Positions 1-46,100 of a DNA stretch of 64,000 nucleotides are shown piece after piece. Where the stretch lies: contig CM120646.1 of NCBI GenBank assembly GCA_051362555.1, positions 19,778,001-19,842,000 on the forward strand, written 5' to 3'. The position numbers were made by a program, and so were the translations under genes. Positions within the stretch are counted from its first letter, which is position 1; the number at the start of each line of letters is the position of its first letter. The notes beneath the pieces were generated by a model. The model saw only the letters and a program-made list of their open reading frames with translations, made no database searches and was not told the origin of the DNA. This DNA is from Lingula anatina. Taxonomy: Eukaryota; Animalia; Brachiopoda.

Positions 1-1964
1 TAAACCAGTTCTTTGTCCTCTTAAAACTGAGAGGTGAGAGTTAGCTAAAATAAGGGAGAGATAACTGTCAAAATATTCAAGGGAACAACATATCATCCAC
101 ATGTTTAGAGTTATGTCTAGGGACATTTAATAGGTTTACTTGCTTGGGATAACATATTGCATGTCCTGGGTTCCTGTCATGTCTAATATCAGATATACTA
201 ATCAAAAATTAAAAGTGTTGTCAAGGTTCAAAGTGGTGATATCTAAGACAGGAATGGGGGCAAAGACTAATCAGTGGAAAAATTTAGAAAAATATCTAAA
301 TCTAAATCTAAGACAGATCAAACACGCATTCTTAAAAAAAAAAAAACGTTATAAAAAATCACAAAAACTGTCATATTTGGCATGCGTGGAACATTTCTTA
401 ACAGACAGGTGCAAATGTAATGAAACACGATCCATAGAAGTCAAGAACACAATTCTTGAATCTCTTGGAAGTTTGATTACCGACTCAAAAACTGTTGGTT
501 TCCCTTCACCAGTTATATTAGTTCCAGTATACAGAGAAGAATAAATGTAAAAGCTTAAAAAGCATTGTGTCAGTTTTGTATAGAGGAACAATCACCTCAT
601 ATACTGACCAATTTTTTTCTGTAAATTTAAAAGGAATCAGATATATGTCATGTTGACAGGGCTCACTGCTGATATCTGAAGGGATGTTTAGACTGTGGAG
701 TTTTGATTCATATTTCCTGCTGGTGCTGGTGTTGGCGGTGGTGGTGGTGGTGGTGGTGGGGGGGGGGTGTCAAGTCAATTGTTATAAAATCATGCAAAAT
801 GGGAACACAGTAAAACACAGAAAAAAATTCTATACATTGAGGAAAAAACCTATTTAAACCATGCAGAAAGTGCTCAACTTTTTTTCAGACAAATTAATGC
901 AGTTTATCCAAACATTTTGCGATATTGCAAGTAGAAGAACTGTAAAATATTGCAATACAGATAAAGCATTTGCTTGAAGTTAAAAAAAAAAATAAAATAA
1001 AAAATAAAAAAAATCAAAAAAGCCTAGAACCCCTCATCTTGTTAGACAATAATTAACTAGACTGTAGCAAATATGAGGTATGATAATTTGTGTCAGAGGT
1101 AACTTTTTAGACAAAAGAAGCAATTTAGCTTTGACTGGAGTTGACAATATAAATATACACCAAGTATAAAGCTGTGTGTAAAATCTGGATTAGAAATGCA
1201 GTTGTCTTCAATTATTCTCTCTCATGGCCTACATTTGCAATTTCTAATTTCAGTATATAAACTGAACAAATTTTAGAGACTGTCTCTATTAATTATACTT
1301 ACAGAGATCATTTACTTCTAAGATATCCTTTCTCTAAATATCTTTGACTTCTTCCAACCTCCCCCCCCCCCAAACATATTTCTTTATCAGGTTTCCCAAT
1401 ACTTAAATCTATTCAAAAAAATCTATTCAAAATATTCTTGATAGCATTCAAAATTCAGATTTTACACTGAACCTGAACATTGCAGAGACTGCAGGTATGA
1501 AATATTAATTTGCAGAGTTTCAATTTATCATACCACTTTGGGTAACATATACATCCATATTGGTCACTTTACAAGCAGAGACATATTCAAGCTCTGATAA
1601 AAGTCATAGTAGTGTTCTTACTGGCTGCATAGATCAAACCATGAGCATATTTATAGAAGTTTTCGAGAAAAAAAAAATCTTAAACTTTTTATCTGGTGTT
1701 ATTAAAACTGCCTGGATTTTCCAAAATCACTTCCTATATTTGATCCATGCCAAATAAGGCAGCTGAGACCTAATAACTAACCCAAAAAGCAATACTTGTA
1801 TAGGCATAAATTGTTACATTGAGCACAGAAAGCCTAGAGATATACATCGTACAGTTTGGTAGACCCATATATCAATTGTCTATCACACTGGTAGCTGGAA
1901 TAATGCCATGCATTGGAAGCTTCTCCTGACAGTCATGTGTGCACAGATAAAGCCTGAATACACC

Positions 1965-2230
1965 TGGCATACTGCCTGGCATGTCATACTGCCTGGCATG
2001 TCACGACATGGGCATGGCATACTGCTTGGCATGTCACAACATGGACATGGCATGCTGCCTGGCATGTCATGACATGGGAATGGCATACTGCCTGGCATGC
2101 CAAGACATGGGCATGCCATATTTCCTGGCATGTCACCACATGAGCATGGCATACTGCCTGGCATGTTACGGCATGGGCATGGCATACTGTCTGGCATGTC
2201 ACCACATGGGCACACAGATTGACATGCCAT
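1965..2230. repeat. 33-bp minisatellite, about 7 copies (CATACTGCCTGGCATGTCACGACATGGGCATGG)
   Basis: Directly visible tandem unit; the overlapping ORFs show an 11-aa periodicity. Confidence 0.9.
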
Positions 2231-2289
2231 AACAGGAATATTTGGCATAACTCAGATCTATGCACAATGACAACACTATTCCGTCTTAC

Positions 2290-2364
2290 CGCATACACTC
2301 CACCTGGGCGGATGTAGTTGGCGTGCATTCGCGCACCAGAAACTCTCTCGTAGATCTCTAACAA
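2290..2364 (-). CDS. NDUFS2: NDUFS2 alternative exon 7b ([25 protein letters not shown])
   Basis: 75 nt, phase 0/0, acceptor GTTGTTTTTAG, donor GTAAGA; 19/25 aa identical to 7a, no stops. Confidence 0.9.
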
Positions 2365-5300
2365 CTAAAAACAACAGTTAAAAGATAAACGTGTTGTAAC
2401 TTTGATATTTGTTTTACTTGAGCGCACAGTGTGAAAGAGGCTCATGGTGATGATGTTGGCAATCAAGGTGTATATGCAAAATCATTTTGTAACTTCTCAT
2501 TAATTCCATGTTTTCCAATTTCAATGGCACTGTTTTGCCAATGCGCTTCCGAAAATCATATCATGTGGCAGTCTCTAAAAGTGATTTCGCTTCAAATATG
2601 TTCTTGAATCCAGCAGGATTATCCGATTAAGTCTTTTTCAAGTGAATTTATCTTTGAGGACAAACATTACACACCTTTTGCCAAAAACAACAAGCATGAG
2701 TCACTAGCTCAAGTCCCTTTCAACCATGTTGACTTCATCACACCTGTTTCATACCTGTGAGACACCACCTGGACGTACATAAGCTGCATGCATACGGGCA
2801 CCTGAAACCCGCTCATAAAACTCCATCAGCTGCAAGAGAGTAGACATCTATGTTTATCAGGCAAACAAGGTGAATTACGGTGAATTGTGTGTCAGCAATA
2901 TGGCTGCTGGTGGCTTTCACAAGTGTGTGTGTGTGTGTGTGTCTGTGTGTGTGTGTGTGCGTGCATATGTGTGTGAGTGATTTCATATGTGTAAAAGTAG
3001 ATGTGAGAATGTTGTATATAAATCATCATCTACATATGTTGTATATAAATCATCATCTACATACAATGTCATATGTTCTTTAAAACTATAAGTGCCCCAT
3101 AACATGAAGCAAACAAGTGTTAACATCAGATGCAACTATTAAGAAGTAATGGGTATGAAGCAGAATCCACCTTTGGAGTACCACTGTATGGTGCTGCAGT
3201 GTTCCTGCAACCTGAAATGATTACTCTGCATTTCTTTTTCTACATTCTTATCATAAACAGTCATTCAAGTCAATTAGTTTACTTCACAAAATAAATATTA
3301 AAATCAACTTTCAGATCTCTCTATAAAAAAAAAGTATAATAAGTTATTATTACAATAACTATAAAAAAATGCTGATAAATTTTACGAAATTACTTTTTTT
3401 CTGAATTCATTTCAGTAGGATTTTTATCTTGATATTCTTTACCTTTTCCCTTTCTTCAAACATCCAAAACAATGGTGTAAGTCCTCCGATATCCAAAATG
3501 TGGGTGGTTATTCCCATCAAGTGGTTCATTATTCTAGTTATTTCTGCAAACATTGCTGAAAAGGAAAAAGAATTACTTCTGCCCTTAAGATAACTGAAAT
3601 TAAAATATCTTGAGAGTAAAAAATAATATAAATTCTAAAAAAGCAAAACACACACCATTCAAAAAAAAAAAAAATTCAGGACCATATTTTTGTGAAGTTC
3701 CTTCCAACAATTGTGCTTAGAAAAATGGACACAAAATTGTCAAACTGATAATTTGTAAGAAGTATAAAGGCTTCTGTTAAATCTTTTTTTTTTTTTAATA
3801 GTTTTCCTGTTTCATTCCCAGAAAGCAAAGGGGCACAAAAACTCTTTTTTTAAATACATTCTCTTCTGTACTGTGACATTCTTTTCAGTAAAGTCCTACT
3901 CCACATAAAATTTGCCAACTCCATTTCTCCACTCATCCTCAAAGTACTTACTTCTAATATACTTTGCCCTGGGTGGGACATCTATATTCAGCAACTTCTC
4001 TACGGCTAAGGCATAAGCCTGCTCATTACACATCATAGATACGTAGTCTAGACGGTCGAAGTAGGGCAGGGCCTGAAAATAGTGCAGTTGATGACAAAAT
4101 TACACAAAACTACTGCTAAAGATTTGGCATTTTGCAGCATTTTATCTTATCACAGTCACCATATCATTGCAATAACTTCCAAGTTATAACATATTTACAG
4201 AATGCAATTTTCAAAACATTAGTTTTACAATATTACTAACTTGGACCCATTTGTCCCACACCTAAAAAAAATGCACTGCCATACCTTGCATATTCCACTG
4301 TCTGTGCCTGCCACATTCAACTAACACATTCTAATGTCACATCTAAAATAATACCCTTCCACATCAAACACGTTCTACTATTACATCTAGCACATTCAAC
4401 TGTACATCTAATTTAAATTCTACTGTTACACCCAACACATTCAACTATCACATTCTTATGTCACATCTAAAATAATGCACTTCCACACCTAACCTATTCT
4501 GTTACATCTAACACATTCAACCATCACATTCTTATGTCACTTCTAAACTAATGCACTTCCACACCTAACACATTCTTCTATTACATCTAACACATTCAAC
4601 TGTCAAAACACATTCCAATGTCACAACTAAATCTTCACTGCAAGCTTACTCACCTGGGTGTATGTTTTGTACTCTATCAGCTTCTCTGTCGCTCTATGAA
4701 GCAGACCTATGTGGGGATCGCAGCGTACTATGGACTGAATTTGCAATAACAAATCAATTTTATATTCTTGAAGTTGTAAGTTGAAATTGCCCATTTGTTT
4801 TTTAGAAAACCCGTGTCAGAATTCAAACATCTATCCCCTCACTTAAAGCAATAATAACTCTTCGTTTCGGCCAAAAAATGAATTTTCCTGGAGTAAACAA
4901 CAATTTTCCCATGCTTACCAATGGTTAATGAATCCATTTTTACATTCATAGTTAGTCCCTGGTTTTTTTCTAAAAAGTTTGGTTTTTTGTTAAAATCTCT
5001 TAAGAGATTTTAACAGAGTATAGACATCAATGGAGGTCACGTGGTCTAAAGACAAGTTCAAATATCAGAATAAAAGCTATAACTGCTGTTTTTGTGGTAA
5101 AACAGAATATATTATATTTCTATGAGTTATTCACAATGTTTTTATTGTGAAATATAGGTCTCATACAAAGAGTTATTATGACTTTAATTTGAATATGAAA
5201 TAAGCAGGTTTTCTCAACTTTTTTTTAATCCACCCTGATCCCGTAAATAAATTTAAAAAATACAGACATATTCATACATTTATATATAACAAAATACAAA

Positions 5301-6433
5301 AGAAAAAATTAATAAATTAAATGCCATTCATCTTGAAAATATTTACAAAAAGCAGTTTCCTGACAAAGTCTCTAAACACCCTAAGTTTCTAGGGTGACAT
5401 GTACCTCAGCATCCAGCATTATGATAAGCCTAAGCACACCATGAGCCGCAGGGTGCTGAGGCCCAAAGTTGAGCACCATATTCTGCAGATATCTGTCAGT
5501 CTGAGGCATTCTCTCTGAAAAGACAAAGAATAATAGATCTCCATTTTTTTCTCATGACATGATGAAGTTTGATCTATTTCTTCTTCTATGAGATACGCAT
5601 CGCAATTTGTTAGCTATGAATTCTTTGAATAAAAATGATATCATAGATACTCTTACTAATTGTAAGAATTATTTTCAAAATAATGATAATAATAATAATT
5701 AAAATAAAATATCAACAGGTAAAGCATTTCCTATTTAAACTTTTCATAACTCACTTGAAAGAAAAACATAAGAAAGAAAAAAATAGCAGCAGACTGTGCT
5801 TTTGTCAACCAAAATTCAGAGATAGAAATAATAGTATTTGGCAGAACAGATTTCAGTCAGCGATGATGAAGAATGCAATTCTTATTTTCAACTTATATTA
5901 TCATATTAGGACAATACAGCTTGTAAACCTAGAATGACCCTAAGAAAAACAAGTACTTACTGAACATGCTGTATTTACTGGTGTCTTGTATAACCTCAAT
6001 TTCGTCCACTGGAGTAGTTTCATAGTCTATATCTACTGCACTATAGTATATTGCTGGTTCGTCGTATCTTTTTAAAAATTCATTATCTGGTAGCCACATA
6101 GGACCTGCATATCTGACATAAAAAAGAATCACATCACCCTGTGTGATACAGTAACATCAAATCTGTATTGCAAAGTTTTAAAATAGTATATCTTCTCTGA
6201 AATAACTACTACTACTACTGACTATTCATGGAGTAAAAAGAACACCTTGATGTTACCTGCAAGTGACACTGTGACAGGCAAGCAAATAAACAATCAAGTA
6301 TTAAATCTGTAGCTCCATACCTTTTTGACAAAACAACTGGTTGAAAAGCGGTCTGAGCTGGGCTTTTTACGGCTGATAAACCGCGTGAAAGATGCCTTCC
6401 AGCTCCAAGAAGGCTCCTGGCGATAGCCGCCAT
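2290..6433 (-). CDS. NDUFS2: NADH:ubiquinone oxidoreductase 49-kDa subunit (NDUFS2), 5' part; gene continues beyond the left window edge
   Basis: GT-AG exons 6433-6321 (mitochondrial presequence-like [18 protein letters not shown]), 6112-5961, 5514-5405 ([15 protein letters not shown]), 4734-4654 ([22 protein letters not shown]), 4072-3952 ([18 protein letters not shown]), 3555-3443 (FWMFEEREK), then 2829-2755 or 2364-2290 ([10 protein letters not shown]). Phases are consistent. I found no further NDUFS2 exon in 1-2289. Confidence 0.97.
2755..2829 (-). CDS. NDUFS2: NDUFS2 alternative exon 7a ([25 protein letters not shown])
   Basis: 75 nt, phase 0/0, acceptor CTCTCTTGCAG, donor GTATGA; canonical RMHAAY type. 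Confidence 0.93.
4290..4630. repeat. degenerate tandem repeat (ACACATTCAACT/CACATCTAA units) in an NDUFS2 intron
   Basis: Recurrent cacatctaa / acacattcaac motifs. Confidence 0.7.
4847..5183. mobile_element. 337-bp non-autonomous TIR element, family A (TTAA TSD, Kolobok-like), copy 1
   Basis: TTAA on both flanks; slightly degenerate TIR related to AGGGATAATAACTCTTC; near-identical copies at 22907-23243 and 51000-51336. Confidence 0.88.
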
Positions 6434-9700: not shown

Positions 9701-12700
9701 TTTGAAAATGAGCCCCTGTTGGATGTCCATTTTTCTGGTCAAATAATCAAGTACTAGTAATGCATTCATGTTATAGTGTGGAGTACACATTTACTATTTA
9801 AACTGCAAATGCTGGTAAATAAGATTTTACAAGATGCTCAAAAACAGTGGAAATTCAGGCTAGGAGGAGAGATTTTCTTCTGTTTTTGGCATTCTTTATG
9901 ATTTTACTATTAAGCATCATGTAATATTGCATCAAAATTGACAAATTACCCTATTATCTGCATCATTATATCCTGCTATTCGACAATGTTGCTTCCTTGT
10001 TTAATATACTACATTTATAACAAACCAGGATGTTGATATATCAGGTTTGAACAGGAGATCCAGTCCCAGCCAGGCGCGGGGGGGGGTCCTGCACCCTCCA
10101 GGTTTATATACTACATAATGAACCAGGATGTTGATATTTCAGATTTGAACAGGAGATCCAGTCCCAGCCAGGGGCGGGGGGTCCTGCACCCTCCAGGTTT
10201 ATATACTACATAATGAACCAGGATGTTGATATTTCAGATTTGAACAGGAGATCCAGTCCCAGCCAGGGGCGGGGGGTCCTGCACCCTCCAGGTTTATACT
10301 GGGCTCCAACACCTACAGCAATGTCCAGGCCAGGTTGAGTGCCATTGCCAACCCAGGACAGAGCCTGGACCCTCCACCACCCCCTCCACAGGTGTTAACA
10401 TCTGGGAACTCCTCACTACCCTCAGCTACTATACAAGGTATGGGGAGGAGTCTAATCAATTTTCATTTAACACTTGTTTCGATAATTATTATCTTGATAA
10501 TGAATTCATTCTACACTTGTTTTGATAATTATTTGAACTAATTATTTGGAATTATAAATTTCCACGGTACAATTTGATTTGGTTAGTTAAACTTTAGTGT
10601 TGATTCAAAATTTTTGAATTAGTTTTATTAGTTGGCTTGTTGTTGGAAAGGACATACTGACTTTATGATTGATTGAAAATGATGTAACTTAAGAAAAATA
10701 AGATATTAGATATTAGAATTTGGCGTTTGAAAATTTTTCTGGACATATGGTATTGCTATTTTTAGATTTGGAATTTTTTGTTTTTCATTTCTGAAGATTA
10801 AAGGCAAAGTGATCTTTAATTCATTTTTTCCTCAGCATTAACACAGCTCATTGTTATGCTTGTAGGCATTGCAGCTGCGCCTCCACCTCCACCTCCTTCG
10901 GGCCCCCCTCCTCGCCCCCCTCCTGTATTCGTACCTCCACAGCTGCGCCAGAGACCCCCTGGTATGAGGCCTCAATATGGACCTCCACCTTCACAGCAGG
11001 GGAACATGAGACCCCCTTTTAACCCTGCAATGGGCTTTCCCCAACGGGGGCCTCCTCCACGCATGCCACCCCCAGGGTACCCCCCTGGCATGCAAGGACC
11101 CATGGGGGGCCCCCCAGGCGGGGGATATTATGGACATGCACACCCAGGCCCTTCTGTGCCTCAGCACCCTCCAAATGCTGCTACTATTGAGAAGCCAAAA
11201 GTTGTGTACAGTGCCCCTCCAGTGAGAAATGTTCCAAAGACAAACAACAGTATTAATACAGCTGATACAGGCAGTGCACAGGCTGAAAAACCTGCCGACG
11301 AGGAGGTTGGGTCAGTGGTGCCTGGGATACAGGTCAACGTGCCCGTTGAGGAGCCTCATTTCCAGCAGGAAGGGATGGTGCAGAACGTGGATGGCGAACC
11401 TATGGACATGATGACGGTGGCGGCACAGCAGACAAAGAAAGATAAGAAAGAGAAAAAGAAAAAGTTTTTGAGAACGGCGGCTGGTGATGTGTGGGAAGAT
11501 CCGTCTCTGGCAGAATGGAATCCAGGTATGGGGAGGTGACTTAAAGGCTCACAAGGTGCTTTGCTAGGGTAAAATAATGCCTCATTTCACTTTACAAATA
11601 TGAGTATATAGTAAACGAAGACAATTTTATTATAACATGGGCACATGGCTAAAAAAACTGAAGGAGGAGAAGGGGTCACTTTCAAAGTTAATTTGGGGGG
11701 AGGTATAGACTACTGTTGCCTCAGTGATATGCTGTTGCACCTTCATGTTCGCAAAGAAAAAAATTACCGCTGAATTGTTTTACCAAATTTTGAACAACTT
11801 TTGTTTTTTATGTTTTTCCAGATGACTTTAGGATATTTTGTGGTGATTTAGGCAATGAGGTCACAGATGAAATATTGGCAAGAGCTTTCAACAGGTGAGT
11901 GAGGAATAATTTGTGAAGATCCAAAGAAGACATGTAGCACATAATTACTAGTAAAAAATGAAAAAAAATTGGAAGATTACGGAATTTGATTTGTGGTGTA
12001 AGTGTACATGAAAGTCATGGAAATCTGAGATAGTCTAAAATGAGGCTTTTGACACATCTAAAGTATCTTTATATTCGTGATCACCGCAGTTGTTTGAAAT
12101 TTACTTCACGTTCACCACTCCACATTTTTAACTTTTAGGTTTCCAAGTTTTGTGAAAGCTAAAGTGGTGAGAGACAAGAGATCAAATAAGACCAAAGGTT
12201 TTGGTTTTGTAAGTTTTGGGGACCCTAATGACTTTGCCAGGGCCATGCGAGAGATGAATGGTAGGTAGTTTACGATATTACGATACAATTATTGACTTTG
12301 GCTGACATCATTATGTTGTCTAGCAGACATGGTTATATTGATATTGATTGACTGGTCACCTAAAAGTGAAGGTGAAACATGCTTTTTCATTACTCGTTAC
12401 ACACTTTACAAACACACACACACACGCGCCTGCCATAAGACACCATTGCACATTGTGAGATCGGATAGAAAGATTGGTTCACCACACAGTGATTTCATTT
12501 TATTAAATCATTTGCCAGCCTTTCTGTGGACAAACAAACAGCAGCTGTCCATGTAATACTGCCTTATCAATTATTGAACAATAAATTTAATTTAAAACTG
12601 ATAAAGTCTCCTTCTGCCATCTGATAGTTACAGCAAAGTTCACATGCCCCAATTCTTAAGACATGAGTGTTATATATTATTTTGTCTATCACATAAAAAC

Positions 12701-22906: not shown

Positions 22907-23243
22907 AGGGATAATAACTCTTCGTTTTGGCCAAAAAATGAATTTTCCTGGAGTAAACAACAATTTTCCCATACTTACCAATGGTTAATGAATCCATTTT
23001 TACATTCAAAGTTAGTCCCTGGTTTTTTTCTAAAAAGTTTGGTTTTTTGTTAAAATCTCTTAAGAGATTATAACAGAGTACAGCCATCAATGGAAGTCAC
23101 GTGATCTGAAGACAAGCTCTGATATCAGAATAATAGCTATAACTGCTGTTTTTGTGGTACAACAGAATATATTATATTTCTATGAGTTGTTCACAATGTT
23201 TTTATTGTAAAATAAAGATATCATATGAAGAGTTATTATCCCA
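22907..23243. mobile_element. family A TIR element, copy 2
   Basis: TTAA flanks, 337 bp, TIR AGGGATAATAACTCTTC with one terminal mismatch. Confidence 0.9.
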
Positions 23244-24900: not shown

Positions 24901-27463
24901 TTAACTCTCTTTCTTGGTGCCATTAGAATCCATTTTTCCATTACTTGCACCCTTCTTCTCCAGTTTGAGGATGTCGTAGAGGGGTCCTTCATTTGACCAT
25001 GCGCTTGGCACACGGAACGATCCTCCAAGACGATCCCACAGTGTGAAAAACTGCCCATAGTTGTAATTATACAAAACATGATGATCCATATGATGTGCTG
25101 AACCGTTCACAAATGGCTTCATCTTCTCTGGGACACGGAAGTCACCATCGTGAATTGACACTGTCCATATATTTACAAAAACAAATAAAATCAGATACAA
25201 AACTTTATGCAGGGGGAACAGGAATGGGTAGATGTGGTACGGGCAGCTCTGTAGAAAGCCGTCTGCAGGGTGAAAGGCGTGGCTGGCGTAAGGTGTGGGG
25301 ACTTTCCAGCGATGATGATCTTTGTGAATATATTTGTAGACTAGACGGTGGTGAAGGAAGCGATGTATCCAGTAGATGCACATGTCTGTGAAGAGGATGA
25401 ATGTCACAACACTGCCTAGTAAGTAGAACCAACCTGGAGAGAAAATCATAGTTGTTCTCATTTTTATCATATTTCATATTTATTCATAGCACCCTCAACT
25501 TTAGTTCTGATGAATGCCAACTTCTTCAATTTAATTTCAAATCCCACACATGGCCCAAGGAGGAGAGAATGTCTACAAACCAGTCTGAATCCAGTCCATA
25601 AACTTTCCAGCCAAATCAGGAATGAGACTCCCATATAGTAAAAAAAAAAAAAAAAAAAGTAAAATATTTGGGTCCAGGGGCCTGGTTGGCCAATGATATT
25701 TTTGGCTCCCAAAAAGTTGAAAATCTGCGGATAGTTTGAAAAATTTCATCCCTGTTAATGTAAACTGAAACTGAGACGCATGTGGAGGGCAGTTTATAAG
25801 AACCAATTTTTTTTTTCATGCCAGCTTATGGTCTCATTTAGCAGGAGATTTGAAAATGAGAAAGCTGACACACATCAGATATCTGGAGCTCAGGGTAATT
25901 TGTTTGAAAATAATCTGGAACTATTCCAGAAATGAAGGATTCTGGTGATACTTGTTTACTACAAAACAAAGCAGATATGGAAAAATTCTATCTCAAAAAC
26001 ATTCAATAATGCAGACTTAAATTTTGCGAAAGCACTTTTTCTAAAATCTGAAGCCTACAAAATTACTGAAAGACAGAGTCTGAATAATATGACTTTTAAA
26101 AAAATAAGTTTATAAATTTTACTTTTAAACATAGAAATACTTTTAATAGAATTCCCATTTTGGAAAATGGTGGCGTTTTAAGCAAACAAAAAAATATAGA
26201 TTTCAATATCATAACTTCTGTTCTTAGGTTAAAGGAAATAAGGCTTAAATCTACCTAATTTCATGTCTTCCACATTGTCATATAACCTGGAATACCCTTG
26301 TAACTCCAGGAAAAAAATGGCACATGTTGGCAGACTCATGTAAGGGATGGAACCCAGCGCATACTTGATTTCTTTCCACACTTGATTCTGAAGAGAAAAA
26401 CACAACTTAGTTTATAACTCTAACATGCACTCTCAACACTTCTGCTTACTCAAACAATTGAGTAATTTAGCTCAAAAGCTGACTTATTTGAGTAAAATCC
26501 AACTTTTAAGCAACTGTTACAGTGTGCCTATTAAATATTAAACTTGGGACACATTTCTTATGACGACTAAACTGGTACCACATCAAACAAACACATTAAG
26601 CACAATCCAATGTCACATCTAACACAATGTGTTTGAGATCTCTACCCAACCTGATTGCACGTTAGACCCCCATTCCCACAGATATTTAGATCGATCTATC
26701 CCCCTGGGGAGTCTCACTAGATTGATGTCAGCTTAACCGGCTTAAATGTCCGTCCCACCTACTAAAAGCTGTAAGGGGGTAATTAACTTTAGTGCGCACT
26801 CAGCTCCCGGAAGCTGACAGCAATTTAGCGTGAACCCCCAGGGAGTTAGGGCAATCCAGTAGATTGATCTAAATCTGTGGGAACCCAGTCATAGAGATAA
26901 CTTAGTATTTATGTTGCCACTGGGGTATTGATATTGCCACTGAACATATCAATTGATTACTAGTAATCTGTGACTTTTTTCTCAAGTTGTAATTAAAATA
27001 AATAAAAAGATGAAAATTTTGAGAGATTATTTCCAATTCAGCTCTATATTGAAGATTTGCACAGACATGCTCCTGAGTTTCACCCTCCTAATCCACCGAT
27101 TACTAGTAATCACATTTGGAAATAAGGTCTACATGGCTCACTCTACAGGTAGTTAAGGGGATAACCACATTTGTCTTCAAAGCAAATTTAATCTCTTGAA
27201 ACTGCTAAAGTTTTAACTTTAATTAAAACCTCAGCAAATATTCCTCAAGTCCATACCTCCAATATTTGAGGATGTTTCAAAAGCCGGTGGTCATAAATAA
27301 AATAATAGCTCAGAGAGGCTGGGATGATGTAGACGAGGAGTCCTCCAGTGTTGACCACAAGAAGAAGACTTATTATCTGACGCAAGGGGTCATCTCTTGC
27401 CCACCCTGTGGGGTAGACACTGTCCAGTACAAAGTGGTCAGCCACATCAAGGACAAGATCCAT
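24901..27463 (-). CDS. SC5D: sterol C5-desaturase / lathosterol oxidase
   Basis: Exons 27463-27257 ([18 protein letters not shown]), 26387-26255 ([16 protein letters not shown]), 25433-24901 ([45 protein letters not shown]). Three His boxes present. Confidence 0.96.
26673..26883. mobile_element. MITE family C, copy 2 (SC5D intron)
   Basis: Homologous to 20097-20301; same TIRs. Confidence 0.85.
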
Positions 27464-34000: not shown

Positions 34001-36391
34001 ACCGAGGAACAACTGCAGATTCCAGAGGACACAATTCTGGCCATAAGTAAGTACTGACATATTAGGTTTATTGAGTATCAGGGGCAGTTTATGTTGTAGA
34101 TATTACAGTGGCATATCATAATATCGAGCTGCTGATAAGAATAAATGTGGAAGATACAAAGGGTGTGGATATGAGATATGTGACATACTGTCTGTGATAT
34201 TGAATTTAAGGAGGAATTCCATCTTCTATGTTTCCCCAAATAATGTGTGTTAATGTGTTAAGATGCTTCAAATAAGTTTACACGTGTGTGTGTATGTGCT
34301 CATGCATATATGCACATACTCTTAAAGCAAAATGTCTGGTTCCCAGTTTCCAGGTACACGCGTGAGGCAGGTGTGCGGTCGCTGGAAAGGAAGCTCGCTG
34401 CCGTGTGCAGGGCCATAGCGGTCAGGGTGGCAGAGCACAGCAGTGCCAAGAAAGAACTCAAATCTGTTGCCATACACCCTGAAGCTGAAGGGAAAGTATT
34501 AGACCACAGCACTGTGCCAGGGCAGAGATCCAGTGTGCACCCTGAATCCCGAGGCCAGGTGGTTGATGTTGATGTCCCAGAGACACATAATGTTGGATAT
34601 CTGACCCACCCTCTGGAGATGCCAATTTTCATTGATAAAGCATTACTGGAGGAGATATTAGGGGTAAGGGTTTCTGTGGAAATATGAAAAAAAAAAACCT
34701 GGAGCATTGAAAAGTGGGCAAGAGGTGCAATGTACACTATATGATCTACTGTAAAATATTTGTAAATTATAAAAAAATATTATAAGTATTGGTAAATTAT
34801 ATAAATAGTTGTAAAATTTTGGTAAGATGTATGGTAAGACCTAATCATAGTTTTTTTTAGATGTGTTTAATGAAAAAAATACATTATTGATCTGTATGAA
34901 AATGAAGTTTTTTAAAGTTACATTTTATACCCCCCCCCCCAAAAAAAAAAAAAAATGCAAGAAATATTTTAAGTCTATATCCATATTTGAATATAACAGG
35001 CACCTCCCTTTGAGAGCGAGATGTCCCAGCGGCTGAGTCGCCCAGGGGTGGCAGTGGGGCTGGCGTGGACCCCCATGGGAGGGGAGATAATGTATGTGGA
35101 GGCCACTAGGATGGAGGGAGAGGGCAAACTGGTGCTGACTGGACAACTGGGGGGAGTCATGAAGGAGTCCGCTACCCTGGCGTTGAACTGGGTCAGGTCC
35201 AATGCACATCTGGTAAGGTTTGGTTAATGTATTGGTAAAAAAGGGGAGGGGGGAATTATTTTCCTCCTCCCTGTTTGTGAACTGCATCAGGTCTGCTAAA
35301 GTTTATCAGATTTTTATACCTCAAGTGTGGAGGGAATTGGAAAGTGACAAGCCCAGGAGTTATGATAGTCTTAACCTACAACATATTGTGGTTACAGTGC
35401 ATTTCACATTGATAATAAAACTAAAAAAAGATTCTTTGAGATTCTAGAATTGTTTTTGGTTGTACATGTAAGTCAGCAAATGAATAATAAAGATAAACTA
35501 AAAATACAAAATACACATATAATTTTTATTTCAGCTTGGCATTGAACAGGGCGGCAACCTGTTAGAGAACACAGATATCCACATCCACTTCCCGGCAGGT
35601 GCCGTGGGGAAAGATGGTCCCTCTGCAGGTGTCACCATCTCTTCTGTCCTAGTGTCCTTGTTCTGTGGTCGCTGTGTCAGGTCGGACACCGCCATGACAG
35701 GGGAGGTGACGCTCCGGGGATTAGTGCTTCCAGTGAGTGTCTAGTATCTATAGGGTAATATTTAAATGTTGGGTTTGTAGCCTGATATCTATCCACAGGA
35801 CAATATTGTTTTTCCTGCAAGCACTCCAAATTGTCACAAAGACTTCAGGACAGTAACTGTTGGTTTACCTGAGCAAGGACATTTAACTAAGAGAACCCAC
35901 AGGTGACAAGGTGTCATCACAGTGTTATTAATATGTTTTGTAACCAGAAACGGATGCAAATTGTACAGTCACTGTAAAGTATTTTTATCCTCTTCATTGT
36001 CAATTTACAGGTGGGAGGTATAAAAGAGAAAGTTTTGGCAGCCCACAGAGCGGGAATAACAAGAGTTTTGTTGCCAGAGAGGAACATGAAAGACTTGCAT
36101 GAAATTCCTGCCAACGTCAGGGTGAGTTTTATCATAAAATGTTTGATTAGGAAGTGAATTCTTCATAATGAAAAAGGAGAATGAGGAGGTTACAGATCAT
36201 GATGATAATATAGTCGACAGTTTTTTTTATGTATATAATAAAATGATGAAATTGAAAATCCTTTTTCTGGTCCATTTCAGAGCAAGTTGTCTATAATTTG
36301 GGTAAGCAAGATGGAGCAGGTTCTGAACGCTGCATTTGAGGAACCTTTTCCTGGTCTCAGCTCAGATGACATTGTCCCTAGTAAGCTTTGA
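28019..36391 (+). CDS. LONP2: peroxisomal Lon protease homolog 2
   Basis: 19 exons: 28019-28125, 28886-28973, 29249-29361, 29673-29758, 29949-30064, 30326-30478, 30827-30990, 31249-31347, 31646-31720, 32151-32336 (Walker A GPPGVGKT), 32755-32902 (LLDEIDK), 33181-33260, 33580-33692, 33927-34046, 34347-34663, 35000-35212, 35535-35732 (KDGPSAG, catalytic Ser), 36011-36121 (GGIKEK), 36281-36391 ending SKL* (PTS1). Confidence 0.97.
33261..33579 (+). other. U12-type (minor spliceosome) GT-AG intron in LONP2
   Basis: Donor GTATCCTTTC; branch-like TACCTTGAC at 33561-33569 just upstream of the AG; no polypyrimidine tract; splicing restores [13 protein letters not shown]. Confidence 0.88.
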
Positions 36392-39585: not shown

Positions 39586-42500
39586 TCACTGAACAGAGTC
39601 CCACTGCAGTCGGTAACGCAGGAAACCTTTCTGAGCCAATGAACTGTTCACGTTCCTCTCTACTTCCTCAGCGACCGCCTTCTCTTCCCGGTGACGCTCT
39701 TGTAATCTTTGTATATAACCATAATCCAGTGGAACTTGTCCATTCTGTTGTCCATTTCTGGGCGAGTATTCAACCTTGCCATTCAGCTGGCTCTGCTGGG
39801 GCCGAGATTTTGACAAACTATTAGTCAGACCATTTGAATGATTCCCACCATCAAACTGTCTGAAATTTTTCTTTTGTAATTTATTCTGGTACCTGTAGTT
39901 GCTTGGTTCTGGTGACTCCGTCACCGTGGGAAGGTTAGAGTTTCGTGGGGACCTATACACAGCGTTGTCTAGAACGTCGTTTTTCTCTTGCTGATGGCGG
40001 CTGTGGAGCTGTTCTACATGATTAATCTCCTGCACGTGGCTCTCAGCCTGGTTGTACAAGGCAGGAGAACTGACCTCTGGAGGAGTCTCTGAGTCCCCCC
40101 TGGTCATTACCTTTGGCTTGGGAACAGTCTTAGCATACTGCAGTGCCTGGGAGGAAATTTGAGCACAAAGACATGAATATAAACACTCCACTCCACACAA
40201 CAGTGCAGTATTATGTTAATTAATATTTAACGGCATACTGCTGTCACTAACAATAAATACCTCATATCAATACATACATAATATTTCTTGTATAAACATC
40301 TCATAAAATTTGTAATGCCTTAAAAATCTACATACTAAAAGTGTATGTATTGTTAAACAGTTGTCATGTTTTGAGTAGCACCAGCACCTTTCAATGTAAA
40401 ATGCAGAGCCAAAAATTAAGGAAAGAAAAAAAAAAACATAAAAATAGACCACCTTAAGTTATCAGTAGGTGCTACACATTTTTCATTACAGTTTTGTTTT
40501 TAAAAAAAGTATTATGCTCAATCTAATGTCACTTCTTATTTTCTAATGGGTTTTTAAAATGTAACCTTCCAATCATGAAGCAAGACACTTATATGGCACA
40601 ATATGGACACAGTGTTAGTGAGCAATATCATTTGTGCTAAAGCCGTTTGGTTTTGGCATGAGGACCAAATGGAAGTTTGCAAGGTGGTGAACTACATATA
40701 TCCCATGCCGGGTGAGAATCAATATGTGGGGAATGCTGAGTATGGAATCTTTACAGATTCCACAGTACTGATTCTTAATTAAGTCTGATGCTGTTTCAGT
40801 TCTGCCACCGCCCGGCGTTCGCTGTCATGACGCTCTTTTAGCCTCATTAAATCCTCCATCTCCTGTTCAGCTGTTTTAGAGCTGGCGGCTCTACTGGGAG
40901 ATTGCGGCTGCACGGATCCTGCCCTGCCTGCAGCTATTTCGTAGGAATTAAATTCTGTAGGATGCCTAGAAGCAACCTGGGGTTTGGGAACACTCTTTGC
41001 ATACTCCATAGCCTAGAGAGCCAAGGGAAAACAAAAACAGAGGGATAATGCACAACAACAAATGCACTCATAAATCGTAAATAAAAACATTTACTGACAT
41101 ATGTCTTAGATAATGCACACAATATTACAATATATTTTTAAGTCTGACAAATCAAAATATAAATCATTTCAACGGGCCAGTATTATTATTACAAAACAGA
41201 TATGTGGATGACAATATCTCTAAATGATGAAAGAAAGAAAAAGGAACAATAAAAAAAATAATAAATAATATTCTAATCATATCACTATAAATATATATAA
41301 AAAATAATCATATATAAAACAATACATAACATCTAAATCAAAGCTAACAAATATATGACAATAAAGGAAAAAAAAATCAACACCAGTGCACATGCAGTTA
41401 GGAACATTCTAGCTGTTTTTCCAGTACTTGTTCCAATGGTCTCTAACAAAAACCCCCATGTCTGTGCTGTCAAACTCTTCCATATTCCTTGCACGTCAAG
41501 TAGTCCATCCACCATTCTCAAATATATCAAACTGAGGCAGAGCTTTCACTCACATTAACAGATTAACACGCCTCCTCCTGGTGTTGAGTAGAATACTGGA
41601 GATTATATGAGTATGTGGGAAACAAGAGGAGGCATGTTTACCTGTTAATGTGATTGCATTCAGTGCAAGACCCCATGGAGCTCGATCTAGTTAGAACAAT
41701 AGCTTCATTGGGCATGGGCCGTTATACAGTGCCGTTTGTGGACATGACAAAACCAGAAAAAAAAAGACTCACCAGTTTTCTCCTGTTCATAATGTCCTCC
41801 TTTTCCTTATCTTCCGCAGTCCCTTGTGGACGAGGTCTTCCCGGTTTGAAAGTTTGTTTCTGTTGCTCCTTCACCTGCTTGGCATACTGTAACTGCTTCT
41901 GTCTCTTCTCCGTCTGAAATGTGTGCCACAAACATCCATCTAAAATCTTTCTTGGTACTAGCATTGAGTACAACTATATACATGCTTTTTTACAAAGCAC
42001 AGTAATATGACTACAAACTGCATATTGTGCACAGGTTGATTTCCACAATGTGAAAGCTGGCTAGTTGGCAGACTTCATATGAAAATACTGTCCATGTAAC
42101 TTAATACAGATACATAACACACACTTTGAGAGAGTAGCAAATTCCCCCCCCCCCTTGCCCCTCCAACCCACTCCTTATCGTTTATCTCTCTGGGTCTGAA
42201 TCTACTGCCCTTTGCTCTCAGGGTATACTTACCCTCTCCCTCAGGGTCTGGTTATCCAGATCAGGCCCCAGTCCTCCTAGCTGTATCTCTTTCTTGAGCT
42301 TCCTGTAGTCATTGATAGTGTAGGCCTTGTACTCCCCCTTGGGCTGCTTCTGTTTCTGGAAGGCCTCCATGTAACTGCCCTCATCACGGGGGGACTGCTT
42401 GTCTTCTGCTTCTTAAAAAACAATAATAACAGAAATTATAACAAGTTTTAAATTATACATATAAAAGAATAGATAAAGCTGTTAACTATTTAGCACTGAG

Positions 42501-43135
42501 AAAATAGCAGGATAAAGCAATCAGGTACAATTTTTACAAAATTATAATAAAAGAATGAATGAAGTATAACAAACTGTTTAACTTTTTATATTCCCCAATT
42601 TTTTCACATAACTATAATTCATGATCACTCTTCAACATCATTAATGGACAACAACAGACCCTCCCACCAAATACAAACTTACTTTTCCCGTGGCTGCCAA
42701 TAGGTGGCAGTGTTTCATAGTGGTGGGCACCATGGACCTCTGGGTGGGTGTGTCTCAGACGAGGAGGCTCATCATCGTAAAAGTCCCTAGGTGGTCCCTG
42801 GAAATGAAATATTATCTTCATAAATGACAAATATTTTTTCACTATGTGGCACTGTCAGTACCACAGCAAGCACTATAATGTAATAAACATATTATTATTT
42901 CATTAAGACCTGCTTACCACACACAAAACTTACTTCTAAGCTCTATCACATTTGTGTACAGATACTTTTTCTCACTTATCATTCCAAATGACTCAGGCAA
43001 TATTTTGTGTACATGATTTATTATTCAGTTACCAATGATTTATTATAAACACAATTGCTTTAGTGCAGTTCACAATAAATATGTAATGCTCTACCCTTGG
43101 CAACCATGGCAACATGTTAATAATCATGTAAAATC

Positions 43136-43176
<41 letters not shown>

Positions 43177-46100
43177 CTCTCTCTGTTTACCTGACTGTGC
43201 TGCCAGGCATACTGTCCATGTCTGGAGTCTGCATACTGCTGCCCAGGGGGGGCACCTTGCCTTGGAGTAGCATAGTGATACTGCTCTGTCTGCTCCTCCC
43301 AGCCTGGCTGTGGTACGGGAGGGGGTCTATGCTGGGGGTAGTAGCCTCCCTGGGGGCCTTGCTGGTACTGTGGGCCCTGCTGGAGAGGGCCCACAGGGGC
43401 CAGATGGGCCTGTGGGATGGGCCCCACTGGCTGATGTATTGCACGGTTGTGGGAGAACTGGTCTGAGAGATGGGACGGGTATGAAGGCAGGGGTCCCATG
43501 GGTCTGTCCCGGTTCTGGGATTGCACCAAAGGCCCAACAGGGGGAGGGGTGATCAGTTTGAGGTTTATATCCACGCTGACTCTTTGACCGTCATCTGTCC
43601 ACAGAGTCTGGGTGATGGGACGGATATCGAGAGAAACAGACTCCCGACTGCCAACCGATGCACGCCTCACTGGTACAGGCACTGGGTCAGGGTCCACCGT
43701 CGCCTCTTTAGGAACAGTGGGACGGTGCTGAAGTGGCTCAACAAAATGAGGCTTGGATTCCCTGAAATTTATCTTACTTTCGCTTGGGAACTTCCGCAGA
43801 CCATTTTTTACAGAACCTGTATTCTTACCGAGTCCTGCCGTGAGACTTTTCTCCTTTTTCTGTGACAGCATCTGAGATCTTTTTGACCATAAGTCTTCAG
43901 CTGAGGAAGGCTTTTGTTTTAGACTTTTAGGAGCATCCTCAGGAGTAGCTTTTACAGGTGTTACTTTGCTGTCTGCAGAGTAAGGTTTTGGCTTCAGGTT
44001 CTTTTTCACAGACTCAATTTGTTTGACTTTGCCAGATTGTGTTTTGCCCTCAGTAGGCGCTGAAAGTCTGGGTTTTAGTCTTGGCACTGGCATGACAGCC
44101 ATTTCTTTCTTTTCTTGAAATTTCTGTCCATAGGTCTTTTTAGGAGCTCCTTCATTTAAAATTTTCCTATTTCTTTCTATAAAATCAACTTGGTTTTGGT
44201 TCTTAGATGGACTCCTTTCTCCCCTTGATGGCTGACCTGACCTTTGACCTCCATCCATCCCATCATCCTCTGCCTGTGGATCATCAGCATACTGGTAATA
44301 CTGCTGCTGTTGTACAGACGAAGGGCCATTCTGTATGTATGGCCCTTGAGAAACATAGCCCTGACCTTGTGGGCCTGATTGGCCATAACCTTGACCTCCC
44401 TGGTCATAGCCTTGACCTTGTGGAGCAAACTGTCCATAACCTTGACCCTGTTGGTCATAAACTTGACCTCGAGGGTCATAAACTTGACCTTGTGGCCCAG
44501 GATGGCCATAAAACTGTTCCTGTGGTATGGACTGGCCATACTGATTAAGAGGTCTTACAGGTTGGCCACTGTAAGTCCCTGAATATTCTCTGTAAGAATC
44601 TCTTGGAGAGGGCTGTGGAGCCTCCCTGTAAGATTCTGGATAAGCAGCCTGAGGTGGCTCTCTATAAGAATCTCTAGGTGAGGCACCAATGGGTTCCCTG
44701 TACAAGTTCCTAGGAGAGGCCTGAGGGGGTTGGTTAGACTGGAACTGACCCCTGAACTGACCACCATAGCTGTGATCAGGGTTTGCATACATCTGTGGCT
44801 CATAGTTATTGTGTGACTGTGGAAGCATGGATTGTGGAGGTGGTGGACGTTGGTCACTGTAGAACTGGCCATCTGGGTGTGGCCTTTGATATGCTGGATG
44901 AGGTCTACGGTCATCTGGGTGACCCATTTGGACATAACGGTCATCTGGTGGCAGGTTTCTGTTGTAATGGTCAAGGTGTGGACTCTGGTAGTATTGGTCA
45001 TCTTGTGCTTGTCTCTGGTAATACTGGTCGTTTCTGCTATACCCATCATCTGGTGGCAATGACTGAAATAAAAAGAAATATTCACATTATGGAAAATTCT
45101 CACAAATATATGTTTGTTTTCATTTCAGAACAGTTCAATAATACAGGTCACAAGACATGACAAAGACATTACAGGACTGCTTTAGCTTACTACTGCTAGA
45201 TTATGATAATAAGAAAGCCCTAGCCAGCAATTTGCACAGCATAAGAACCAGGTTCATATATACTGGGGTAGCGCTAGCAATTTTTTTTGCTTAGCCAAAT
45301 CATCACTTTTTTTGTCAATTTGTTACCCAAATGGTTATAGTTTGACTAAAATAAGTCAAATCAAGCCCTTTTTGTTTAGCCAATTTTAGTCAGTTTTAGC
45401 ATTTGGGGAGTGTTAGCGCTACCCCGGATATATATATGACAGATGATTAAAGTATATATTGGCATTTTCTAAATACCAACAATATTTCTCAATAAGATTA
45501 AAAAAAAAAATCCAGCTGAGTACTCCTATATACATTATAACACTGACTTTCTTCTTTGTAAAGGGATTAAGTAAGCTGCAACATAAATCCATAAATCAAT
45601 ACCAAACAAACCTGATATTTATCAGGATTACTCCTGAGTGCATATTGGTCCTGCTCAAACTGTCTCTCATGCTGGTCTCGTCGTGGTGGCATGACATCCT
45701 CCTCGGGCTGTGAGCCACGGTGGTAACCACGGGAACGGGATATTCTACCTCCGTAGGTCAACTGTTCTGAAGAGGCATCCCTGACGGCGTCCTGACGCAC
45801 CATTCTCTGTGGGTGGACTGGCTGACCAGTGGCGTGACTCTGGCCAGTCTCCTGGACGGGGTGCCTCTGCTCATAATAGGCCTCTGTTCTTGACTGGTTT
45901 TGAGCCACATGTGGTGACCTCTGGTGGCCAAGGGATGACCTAAAGTCATGACTTTCCCCCATGTCGTCTATGCTGTCTCTACTAAAGTCTCGTTCTCGAA
46001 CATGACCTTGACCCTCATCTGGAAGCTGTTCATCATGATCCTGAGGGAACGGAGTCCTGCGCATTTGCCGACTCGTCCCTGTATCTTGAGTGTTAGGGTC

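What the first reader, a model, noticed from the sequence alone, without database searches (positions are those of the whole stretch)
2290..2829. Duplicated, probably mutually exclusive exons in the catalytic core of complex I subunit NDUFS2
Seen: two tandem 75-nt phase-0 exons with intact splice sites encode the same segment, 7a [25 protein letters not shown] and 7b [25 protein letters not shown]. Six residues differ (M>L, F>I, A>N, V>I, S>Y, Q>A), and 12 of the 19 shared residues use different codons. That pattern points to an old duplication with both copies under purifying selection, not a decaying copy or an assembly duplicate. Established: the His of RMHxxY is the redox-Bohr residue that tunes Fe-S cluster N2 next to the quinone site. 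Animals that use rhodoquinone (helminths, molluscs, annelids) switch UQ/RQ synthesis through mutually exclusive exons of coq-2, and C. elegans has two NDUFS2 paralogues. From memory, to be verified, nematode NDUFS2 has RMHANY like 7b. Inference: one gene makes two complex I isoforms with different N2/quinone properties, possibly an aerobic (UQ) versus anaerobic (RQ/fumarate respiration) or tissue-specific switch. I do not know of this having been described.
Basis: partly seen in the sequence, partly recalled or inferred. Interest (0 to 1): 0.95.

Follow-up and report, generated by a model that had tools for sequence, protein, structure and literature searches.

The report
Swappable exon in complex I core
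In the brachiopod Lingula, the gene for a core catalytic subunit of mitochondrial complex I splices in one or the other of two old duplicated exons, in shares that differ sharply between RNA samples, so the animal likely makes two versions of the enzyme, probably for different cell types; a link to life without oxygen is untested.

Summary
Observation confirmed and mutual exclusivity shown. The window holds exons 1-7 of Lingula anatina NDUFS2. Either 75-nt exon gives an exact match to a RefSeq model (X1 = 7a, X2 = 7b). In 4 RNA runs, exon 6 joins 7a/7b in 85/0, 12/56, 11/23 and 19/20 reads. No 7a-7b joint is listed, and both exons continue into the same exon 8. Synonymous sites are saturated (pS 0.86, pN 0.16); 7a is the ancestral state and 7b the derived one. 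The rhodoquinone reading is weak: the N2 histidine is the same in both exons, the quinone ligands lie in shared exons, the Asn of 7b occurs in nematodes and tardigrades but in 0 of 9 flatworm, mollusc and annelid genera, and no other animal examined showed the pair. New lead, found post hoc: Rbfox and MBNL-type motifs cluster downstream of 7b, pointing to a muscle/neuron switch. Sample identity is unknown, so tissue and oxygen cannot be separated. No paper found describing it; no earlier finding of this scan.

The parts
6321..6433 (-). NDUFS2 coding exon 1 (start codon, presequence)
   Evidence: exact match to RefSeq X1/X2 when joined
5961..6112 (-). NDUFS2 exon 2
   Evidence: AG/GT ends, exact protein match
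5405..5514 (-). NDUFS2 exon 3; holds His113 (= bovine H59, quinone ligand)
   Evidence: numbering offset
4654..4734 (-). NDUFS2 exon 4
   Evidence: joint to exon 5 in 4 of 4 runs (73, 64, 35, 29 reads)
3952..4072 (-). NDUFS2 exon 5; holds Tyr162 (= bovine Y108, quinone ligand)
   Evidence: joint to exon 6 in 4 of 4 runs (300, 72, 58, 41 reads)
3443..3555 (-). NDUFS2 exon 6, common upstream exon; holds Asp214 (= bovine D160)
   Evidence: joints to 7a and to 7b
2755..2829 (-). alternative exon 7a, ancestral type, residues 231-255 of isoform X1; contains a TGCATG at 2792-2787
   Evidence: joint from exon 6 in 4 of 4 runs; 25 of 25 identical to 4 of 43 named animal genera
2365..2754 (-). 390-nt intron between the two exons; never listed as spliced out on its own
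   Evidence: no 7a-7b joint; branch-like TTAAC at -17, next AG at -37
2290..2364 (-). alternative exon 7b, derived type (M232L, F234I, A246N, V248I, S254Y, Q255A), isoform X2
   Evidence: joint from exon 6 in 3 of 4 runs (0, 56, 23, 20 reads); continues into the same exon 8 as 7a
1907..2227 (-). candidate intronic splicing enhancer downstream of 7b: 33-nt minisatellite (1978-2212, 7.1 copies) with 5 GCATG and many YGCY motifs in and beside it
   Evidence: motif counts, repeat; function inferred, not tested

Best explanation
The Lingula NDUFS2 gene carries two old tandem copies of a 75-nt exon and splices exactly one of them into each mRNA, in shares that run from 0% to 82% 7b between samples, which likely yields two working forms of complex I chosen by cell type. 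Shown: the two exons, their splicing to the same neighbours, the lack of a listed 7a-7b joint, the difference between samples, and selection on both copies. Inferred: 7a is the default, and splicing factors of the Rbfox/MBNL kind, typical of muscle and neurons, would block 7a through its internal UGCAUG and promote 7b through the motif cluster downstream of it. Inferred: the six changes repack the helix end and loop that carry the N2-tuning His244, and would shift the cluster's surroundings or the contacts with neighbouring subunits rather than the quinone-binding residues. My odds by step: mutually exclusive splicing 0.97; regulated rather than inherited difference 0.85; both proteins work 0.9; the two enzymes differ measurably 0.65; Rbfox/MBNL-type control 0.4.
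For: (4 of 9 listed runs, 3 studies, 6-30% of each run read): exon 6>7a 85, 12, 11, 19 reads; exon 6>7b 0, 56, 23, 20; no 7a>7b row; the same 30-letter loose end follows 7a in X1 (166 reads) and 7b in X4 (62 reads) and reads as the start of RefSeq exon 8. In X4 and X9 the two joints sum to 68 and 39, close to the flanking joints (72/64 and 41/29). Counted by distinct read starts, usage differs between runs (chi-square p 1.5e-12; X1 against each other run p at most 2e-9). Introns around the pair carry depth of mostly 1-9 in the three runs that use 7b and 0 in X1, while the exon 5-6 intron has 0-0.2 in all four, which fits slower, regulated splicing when 7a is passed over (inference). pS 0.86 against pN 0.16. 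Among the 40 variant rows shown, 14 lie in the 390-nt intron and 0 in the 150 exon bases (Fisher p 0.014). 5 GCATG within 400 nt after 7b against 0-1 after the 7 other exons; 19 YGCY within 300 nt against 1-5. The Fox-1 map (repression through upstream or exonic sites, activation through downstream sites, use in mutually exclusive pairs) is from PMC2777236, passages; the MBNL motif is recalled. Model of isoform X2: 232 and 234 in helix 218-239, the other four in the following loop; fold matches solved NDUFS2 chains.
Against: Run identities are coded, so no tissue, stage or oxygen state is known; X1 against the rest could reflect population or library rather than cell type. X4, X7 and X9 do not differ from each other (p 0.14-0.79). 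The motif result is post hoc (7 motifs tried), 3 of the 5 GCATG lie inside one tandem repeat, and the TGCATG in 7a is a coding by-product present in 15 of 20 single-copy orthologous exons. The purifying signal for 7b alone is not significant in the variant table (p 0.14), and 178 of 218 variant rows and 241 of 265 loose-end rows were not shown. No protein-level or enzyme data. Changing H226 itself moves the N2 potential by 80 mV yet has little effect on activity (PMC8042128, PMC4893023, passages), so smaller changes nearby may do little. pLDDT over the loop is only 67-81 and the model gave me no distances.
Confidence: 0.55

Rival explanations
1. Oxygen switch: 7b makes a complex I suited to rhodoquinone and fumarate respiration, and is chosen under hypoxia or in tissue buried in anoxic sediment. 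It can overlap with the best explanation if the 7b tissue is the hypoxic one.
For: 7b gains the Asn that 6 of 6 named nematode genera have, and Ile248/Tyr254 as in Schistosoma and Opisthorchis. The segment carries the His that sets the N2 potential. Rhodoquinone users switch coq-2 by such an exon pair (PMC7434440, passages). Lingula burrows in sediment and tolerates low oxygen (recalled).
Against: Asn246 in 0 of 9 flatworm, mollusc and annelid genera, but in 3 of 3 tardigrade genera and in most of the 120 mostly non-animal proteins listed. No second exon form in the oyster, periwinkle or schistosome cluster members listed. Quinone ligands H59, Y108, D160 map to exons 3, 5, 6. Otero et al. found no common complex I change tied to rhodoquinone and no hypoxia phenotype of nduf2-2 loss (PMC6859908, parts 1-3 of 5); rescue by nduf-2.2 did not need rhodoquinone (PMC11265314, passages). 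Brachiopods are not among the listed rhodoquinone makers (PMC7434440).
Confidence: 0.2
2. Neutral partition: after the duplication each copy became the only one spliced in some cells, so both are kept intact, but the two proteins are functionally equivalent.
For: Four of the six 7b residues occur singly at the same place in other animals (L 1, N 9, I 19, Y 3 of 43 genera). Splice partition alone explains purifying selection on both copies. C. elegans NDUFS2 paralogues are interchangeable when driven from the same promoter (PMC11265314, passages).
Against: All six changes fell on 7b while 7a stayed identical to distant animals; Phe234 is kept in 42 of 43 genera and Ile or Ala255 appear in none. 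An unnamed marine crustacean-clade group reached L232, I234, I248 and Y254 together and independently, which hints at a coupled alternative state.
Confidence: 0.17
3. Inherited difference: use of 7b varies by individual, population or cryptic species, and X1 comes from animals that lack or do not splice 7b.
For: X7 and X9 differ from the window at many intron sites and X1 has no read on 7b or its introns. No DNA run was laid.
Against: X4 shows no listed variant in the introns around the pair and uses 7b most; X7 and X9, the most diverged, use both exons; three runs hold both forms at once.
Confidence: 0.07
4. Artefact or dead copy: an assembly duplicate, or a pseudo-exon.
For: None found.
Against: 65% DNA identity with unrelated flanks; spliced reads on both exons.
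Confidence: 0.01

Closest known systems
coq-2 exons 6a/6e (Tan et al. 2020, PMC7434440; passages seen)
   Same: two homologous internal exons, spliced one or the other, remodel the core of a mitochondrial quinone-related enzyme
   Different: coq-2 a/e is shared by helminths, annelids and molluscs with diagnostic residues and a shown effect on rhodoquinone; the NDUFS2 pair was seen only in Lingula, with no tested function
Nematode and flatworm NDUFS2 gene duplicates, gas-1/nduf-2.2 (PMC6859908, parts 1-3 of 5; PMC11265314, passages)
   Same: two forms of the same core subunit, used by stage or cell type (nduf-2.2 in dopaminergic neurons)
   Different: whole-gene paralogues under transcriptional or translational control; 3 of 3 Pristionchus pairs are identical over the segment that Lingula swaps
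Fox-1/Rbfox-controlled exon choices: alpha-actinin NM/SM, FGFR2 IIIb/IIIc, egl-15 5A/5B, ATP synthase gamma exon 9 (PMC2777236, passages)
   Same: motif layout: (U)GCAUG inside the upstream exon, several copies downstream of the second; one known target is an OXPHOS subunit
   Different: here only motif counts, mostly from one minisatellite; no binding or knock-down data
PKM1/PKM2, ketohexokinase A/C, SLC25A3 exons 3A/3B, and the long/short NDUFV3 forms (all recalled, not checked)
   Same: tissue-specific isoforms of metabolic or mitochondrial proteins made by alternative splicing, the first three from duplicated exons
   Different: none swaps a segment of a complex I core subunit next to an Fe-S cluster; NDUFV3 is an accessory subunit
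RefSeq models XP_013414127.1 and XP_013414128.1
   Same: the very same two isoforms
   Different: automatic annotation only; my searches found no paper on them

Membership tests
NDUFS2 / complex I 49 kDa subunit | PF00346 domain, conserved N2 and quinone-site residues, 49 kDa fold | tested here: met
   Pfam E 1.4e-122 for isoform X2; model matches solved chains at E about 1e-49; His244 aligns to Y. lipolytica H226
mutually exclusive duplicated exons | adjacent homologous exons of equal length and phase with intact splice sites | tested here: met
mutually exclusive duplicated exons | each exon spliced from the same upstream exon and to the same downstream exon | tested here: met
   joints; same loose end after 7a (X1) and 7b (X4); downstream rows for X7 and X9 were among those not shown
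mutually exclusive duplicated exons | no transcripts with both exons | tested here: met
   no 7a-7b joint listed in 4 of 4 runs (threshold 3 reads from 2 starts), against 42 exon 6>7a reads in the three runs that use both
mutually exclusive duplicated exons | no transcripts with neither exon | tested here: inconclusive
   exon 8 is outside the window; no such loose end among 24 of 265 rows shown; joint sums match flanking joints in X4 and X9
mutually exclusive duplicated exons | both copies under purifying selection | tested here: met
   pS 0.86, pN 0.16; 0 variant rows in 150 exon bases against 14 in 390 intron bases
mutually exclusive duplicated exons | both proteins made and assembled | not testable with these tools
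   needs proteomics
coq-2 a/e-type rhodoquinone switch | exon pair shared by rhodoquinone-making phyla | tested here: not met
   no exon-7 swap outside Lingula among the listed members of 30 clusters; sampling is thin and rests on annotation
coq-2 a/e-type rhodoquinone switch | alternative exon carries residues specific to rhodoquinone users | tested here: not met
   Asn246 in 6 of 15 genera of such phyla (nematodes only) and in 3 of 3 tardigrades
coq-2 a/e-type rhodoquinone switch | the organism makes rhodoquinone and switches isoform with oxygen | not testable with these tools
   no genome held, runs coded; no paper found on Lingula rhodoquinone
Rbfox-regulated exon pair | (U)GCAUG in or before the repressed exon and after the activated exon | tested here: inconclusive
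   layout present but post hoc, repeat-derived, and the exonic site is common in single-copy orthologues (15 of 20)
Rbfox-regulated exon pair | sites conserved in relatives and splicing responds to the factor | not testable with these tools
   no second brachiopod locus obtained
steric, NMD-, U12- or RNA-pairing-enforced exclusivity | short donor-to-branch distance, frameshift on double inclusion, mixed U2/U12 sites, or a conserved duplex | tested here: not met
   390-nt intron with branch-like site at -17; both exons 75 nt; all GT-AG; best duplexes matched by 51-169 of 200 shuffles; intron fold z -1.7 and 5 of 7 paired variants break pairs

The most novel reading that the evidence does not exclude
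Lingula retunes the catalytic core of complex I by splicing: a muscle-type splicing programme puts exon 7b into tissue that works without oxygen, giving an N2 environment fitted to a low-potential quinone and fumarate respiration. It would be the first splice switch in a core catalytic subunit of complex I and a natural six-residue experiment on N2 tuning.
Probability: 0.2. Interest if true: 0.87.

Novelty: new variant of a known kind. Interest (0 to 1): 0.62.

Why it matters
The core subunits of complex I are treated as the same in every cell of an animal, apart from a few whole-gene duplicates. Here one gene swaps 25 residues that carry the N2-tuning histidine and, in humans, the disease sites R228 and P229 (PMC8615828, passages), with everything else held constant. 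That makes a clean natural pair for asking what the residues around N2 do, testable by putting the six changes into Yarrowia, whose segment matches 7a at 24 of 25 residues. It also offers a way to ask whether complex I itself is adapted for low-oxygen respiration, a point left open for worms (PMC6859908). If the two enzymes prove equal, it remains a well-supported, lineage-restricted exon duplication of modest interest.

Tried and rejected
No whole genome is held, so exon 8, other NDUFS2 copies and Lingula coq-2 could not be read. No indexed RNA holder was listed; the nine runs came by species label, and only four of them were laid. The 7b-centred protein search returned mostly non-animal proteins. 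Splice-site duplexes: none beat shuffles; the 971-nt fold had z 0.37; local folds gave one window at z -3.0, over a 27-nt tandem repeat; the intron's long stem (z -1.7, 6 of 100 shuffles) is broken by 5 of 7 paired variants with none compensated. Two 12-nt inverted repeats touching the 7a splice sites are treated as chance. Steric block, NMD and U12 mismatch rejected. Search for a tandem pair in other animals: 20 intron-flanked copies of this exon in metagenome contigs, 0 of 20 with a second full copy; 5 of 20 span both neighbouring exons; these contigs are unnamed and none could be called a brachiopod relative. High-scoring odd proteins (P0121, P0286, P0287, P0289) repeat the whole gene or exon 8, not exon 7 alone. 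Isoforms of two bees and a periwinkle do not differ in this segment. The tree is the quick search only; the careful one did not finish. A PDB search meant to show bacterial segments showed plant ones instead. Paper searches with no description of this event, listings only: NDUFS2 + mutually exclusive exons, Lingula + rhodoquinone (27), Lingula anatina + alternative splicing + mutually exclusive (35), brachiopod/Lingula/fumarate reductase/anaerobic (40), complex I + core subunit + mutually exclusive + NDUF (48), Lingula + hypoxia + complex I (64). PMC8659336 (passages) has no mention of NDUFS2 under the terms tried. No complex prediction was run. Earlier findings of the scan: only unrelated bacterial nuo operons, nothing by place or words.
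Full report
What is there. The minus strand of window 6433-2290 holds coding exons 1-7 of NDUFS2, the 49 kDa core subunit of complex I. Exon 7 is present twice: 7a at 2829-2755 and 7b at 2364-2290, each 75 nt, phase 0, AG/GT, 390 nt apart. The flanking introns do not resemble each other (17 and 18 of 60). Exon 8 is outside the window.

Whose gene. Exon 5 matched one named protein at 100%, Lingula anatina isoform X1. Its cluster has two members, XP_013414127.1 (X1) and XP_013414128.1 (X2), both 484 aa, which differ only at M232L, F234I, A246N, V248I, S254Y, Q255A. The window's exons give the first 255 residues of X1 with 7a and of X2 with 7b, exactly. So the animal is a brachiopod, and the pair is already in RefSeq as automatic models.

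Splicing. Nine RNA runs were listed by species label; four, from three studies, were laid on 2188-4977, 6-30% of each being read. Exon 6 joined 7a in 85, 12, 11 and 19 reads and 7b in 0, 56, 23 and 20 reads (X1, X4, X7, X9), that is 0, 82, 68 and 51% 7b. No joint from 7a to 7b was listed in any run (threshold: 3 reads from 2 starts), although double inclusion would keep the frame. Reads leaving 7a in X1 (166) and 7b in X4 (62) carry the same 30-letter continuation, which reads as the start of RefSeq exon 8. Depth on 7b in X1 is 0 against 150 on 7a. By distinct read starts (44/0, 11/34, 9/16, 14/19) the runs differ (p 1.5e-12), all of it due to X1; the other three do not differ from each other (p 0.14-0.79). 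The introns around the pair have depth of mostly 1-9 in the three runs that use 7b and 0 in X1, while the exon 5-6 intron has 0-0.2 everywhere; I read this as slower splicing when 7a is passed over (inference). Limits: 241 of 265 loose-end rows and 178 of 218 variant rows were not shown, skipping of both exons cannot be excluded, and nothing is known of tissue or treatment.

Selection and age. Between the exons pS is 0.86 (saturated) and pN 0.16. I took one protein for each of 43 named animal genera from my searches: 7a is identical over 25 residues to four of them (a mite, a beetle, a hemichordate, a tunicate), so all six changes lie on the 7b side. Phe234 is kept in 42 of 43 and Ile occurs in none; Ala255 in none; Leu232 in 1, Asn246 in 9, Ile248 in 19, Tyr254 in 3. 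Among the variant rows shown, 14 fall in the 390-nt intron and none in the 150 exon bases (p 0.014; 7b alone p 0.14); the six shown in exons 4-6 are synonymous.

Spread. The 75-nt exon is an old unit: a pattern scan found 20 intron-flanked copies in unnamed animal-like metagenome contigs. None shows a second full copy, and five span both neighbouring exons. In the listed members of 30 protein clusters, among them oyster, periwinkle, schistosomes, nematodes and insects, I saw no same-species swap of this segment except in Lingula (at most 15 members listed per cluster). This sample is thin and has no other brachiopod, phoronid or nemertean that I could name, so the duplication is undated. Of 381 segments held, 17 share at least four of the six 7b residues: Lingula X2, three divergent unnamed proteins, and 13 from one unnamed marine group with L232, I234, I248, Y254. 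On a quick tree built without the segment, six of these form one clade (SH-aLRT 100) inside a weakly supported crustacean-containing group, far from Lingula. That looks like convergence.

What the swap touches. Position 14 of the exon is His244, which aligns to Y. lipolytica H226 and bovine H190. H226 hydrogen-bonds N2 and tunes its potential (H226M: -140 to -220 mV, pH dependence lost) with little effect on activity (PMC8042128 and PMC4893023, passages). It is the same in both exons. By the same offset the quinone-site residues H59, Y108 and D160 are Lingula H113, Y162 and D214, in exons 3, 5 and 6. Human R228Q and P229Q, disease changes (PMC8615828, passages), fall on shared residues 249-250. 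In a model of X2 (mean pLDDT 76) residues 232 and 234 lie in helix 218-239 and the other four in the loop after it, and the fold matches solved NDUFS2 chains. I could not measure distances. The inference is that the swap repacks the surroundings of the N2 histidine or a subunit contact, not the quinone headgroup site.

How one exon is chosen. Not by NMD (both 75 nt), not by U12 sites (all GT-AG), not by a distant branch point (branch-like TTAAC at -17, next AG at -37), and no duplex or fold stood up. That leaves protein regulators. Looking afterwards at motifs, I found 5 GCATG in the 400 nt after 7b (0-1 after the other seven exons; 6 of 1272 overlapping 400-nt windows reach 5, some being this site), 19 YGCY in 300 nt (1-5 elsewhere), and a TGCATG inside 7a that 7b lacks. 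Most of these come from a 33-nt minisatellite at 1978-2212. The layout fits the Fox-1 map, in which exonic or upstream sites repress and downstream sites activate, often in mutually exclusive pairs and in muscle or nerve (PMC2777236, passages). Against it: seven motifs were tried, repeat copies are not independent, TGCATG is not enriched in the window (43 found, 46 expected), and 15 of 20 single-copy orthologous exons contain it too. I give this step 0.4.

The rhodoquinone idea. Three Pristionchus paralogue pairs are identical over this segment. Otero et al. report no common complex I event tied to rhodoquinone and no hypoxia phenotype for nduf2-2 (PMC6859908, parts 1-3 of 5). Meisel et al. 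find nduf-2.2 in dopaminergic neurons and its rescue independent of rhodoquinone (PMC11265314, passages). Tan et al. list nematodes, flatworms, molluscs and annelids as the only known animal makers (PMC7434440, passages). Whether Lingula makes it, or has coq-2 a/e exons, I could not test. The idea is not excluded, since a muscle form could also be the hypoxic form; I give it 0.2.

Verdict. The feature is real and now has direct RNA support as a mutually exclusive, sample-dependent exon pair in a core catalytic subunit of complex I. It works like coq-2 a/e or PKM1/2 (the latter recalled) as a splice switch, but fails the tests I could run for membership in a rhodoquinone switch. New variant of a known kind; interest 0.62, held down by one lineage, existing RefSeq models and no functional data.

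Noticed in passing
P0291, P0293, P0295 and their clusters: An unnamed marine NDUFS2 group, placed near barnacles on a quick tree, has four of the six 7b residues (L232, I234, I248, Y254) as a whole gene. It may be a divergent paralogue or lineage that converged on the same state.
   Followed up: partly
L002:1261-1610 (minus strand): In another animal-like contig the 3' half of this same exon plus its donor site is repeated about five more times with a period near 55 nt, a small example of how copies of this exon end arise.
   Followed up: partly
window 6433 (minus) and 6749 (plus): A second gene starts head to head about 316 nt from the NDUFS2 start codon; its proline-rich exon at 10820-11539 has no Pfam hit and looks like RBM42 (recalled). 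Probably a shared promoter.
   Followed up: no
window 24901-25473 (minus): Exon with a fatty acid hydroxylase domain (PF04116), like a sterol C5-desaturase (name recalled).
   Followed up: no
window 34262-34687 (plus): Exon with a Lon protease lid domain (PF22667).
   Followed up: no
window 39586-47594 (minus): Large low-complexity exons (209, 649 and 675 aa open frames); the last carries a JHY domain hit (PF15261).
   Followed up: no
window 54136-55218 (minus): Exon beginning with the end of an ETS domain (weak hit, below the Pfam cut-off).
   Followed up: no
window 4843-4977: A highly expressed dispersed repeat in the exon 3-4 intron draws thousands of reads from other loci in all four runs; a similar stretch seems to recur near 22940-23096.
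   Followed up: no
runs X7 and X9, window 2232-3417: These two runs differ from the window at roughly 3-5% of covered intron sites, far more than X4, which suggests a diverged population or cryptic species under the same label; both exons are used there.
   Followed up: partly
P0121 (Toxocara canis, 843 aa): One predicted protein holds the NDUFS2 core twice, probably two tandem paralogues fused by the annotation.
   Followed up: no
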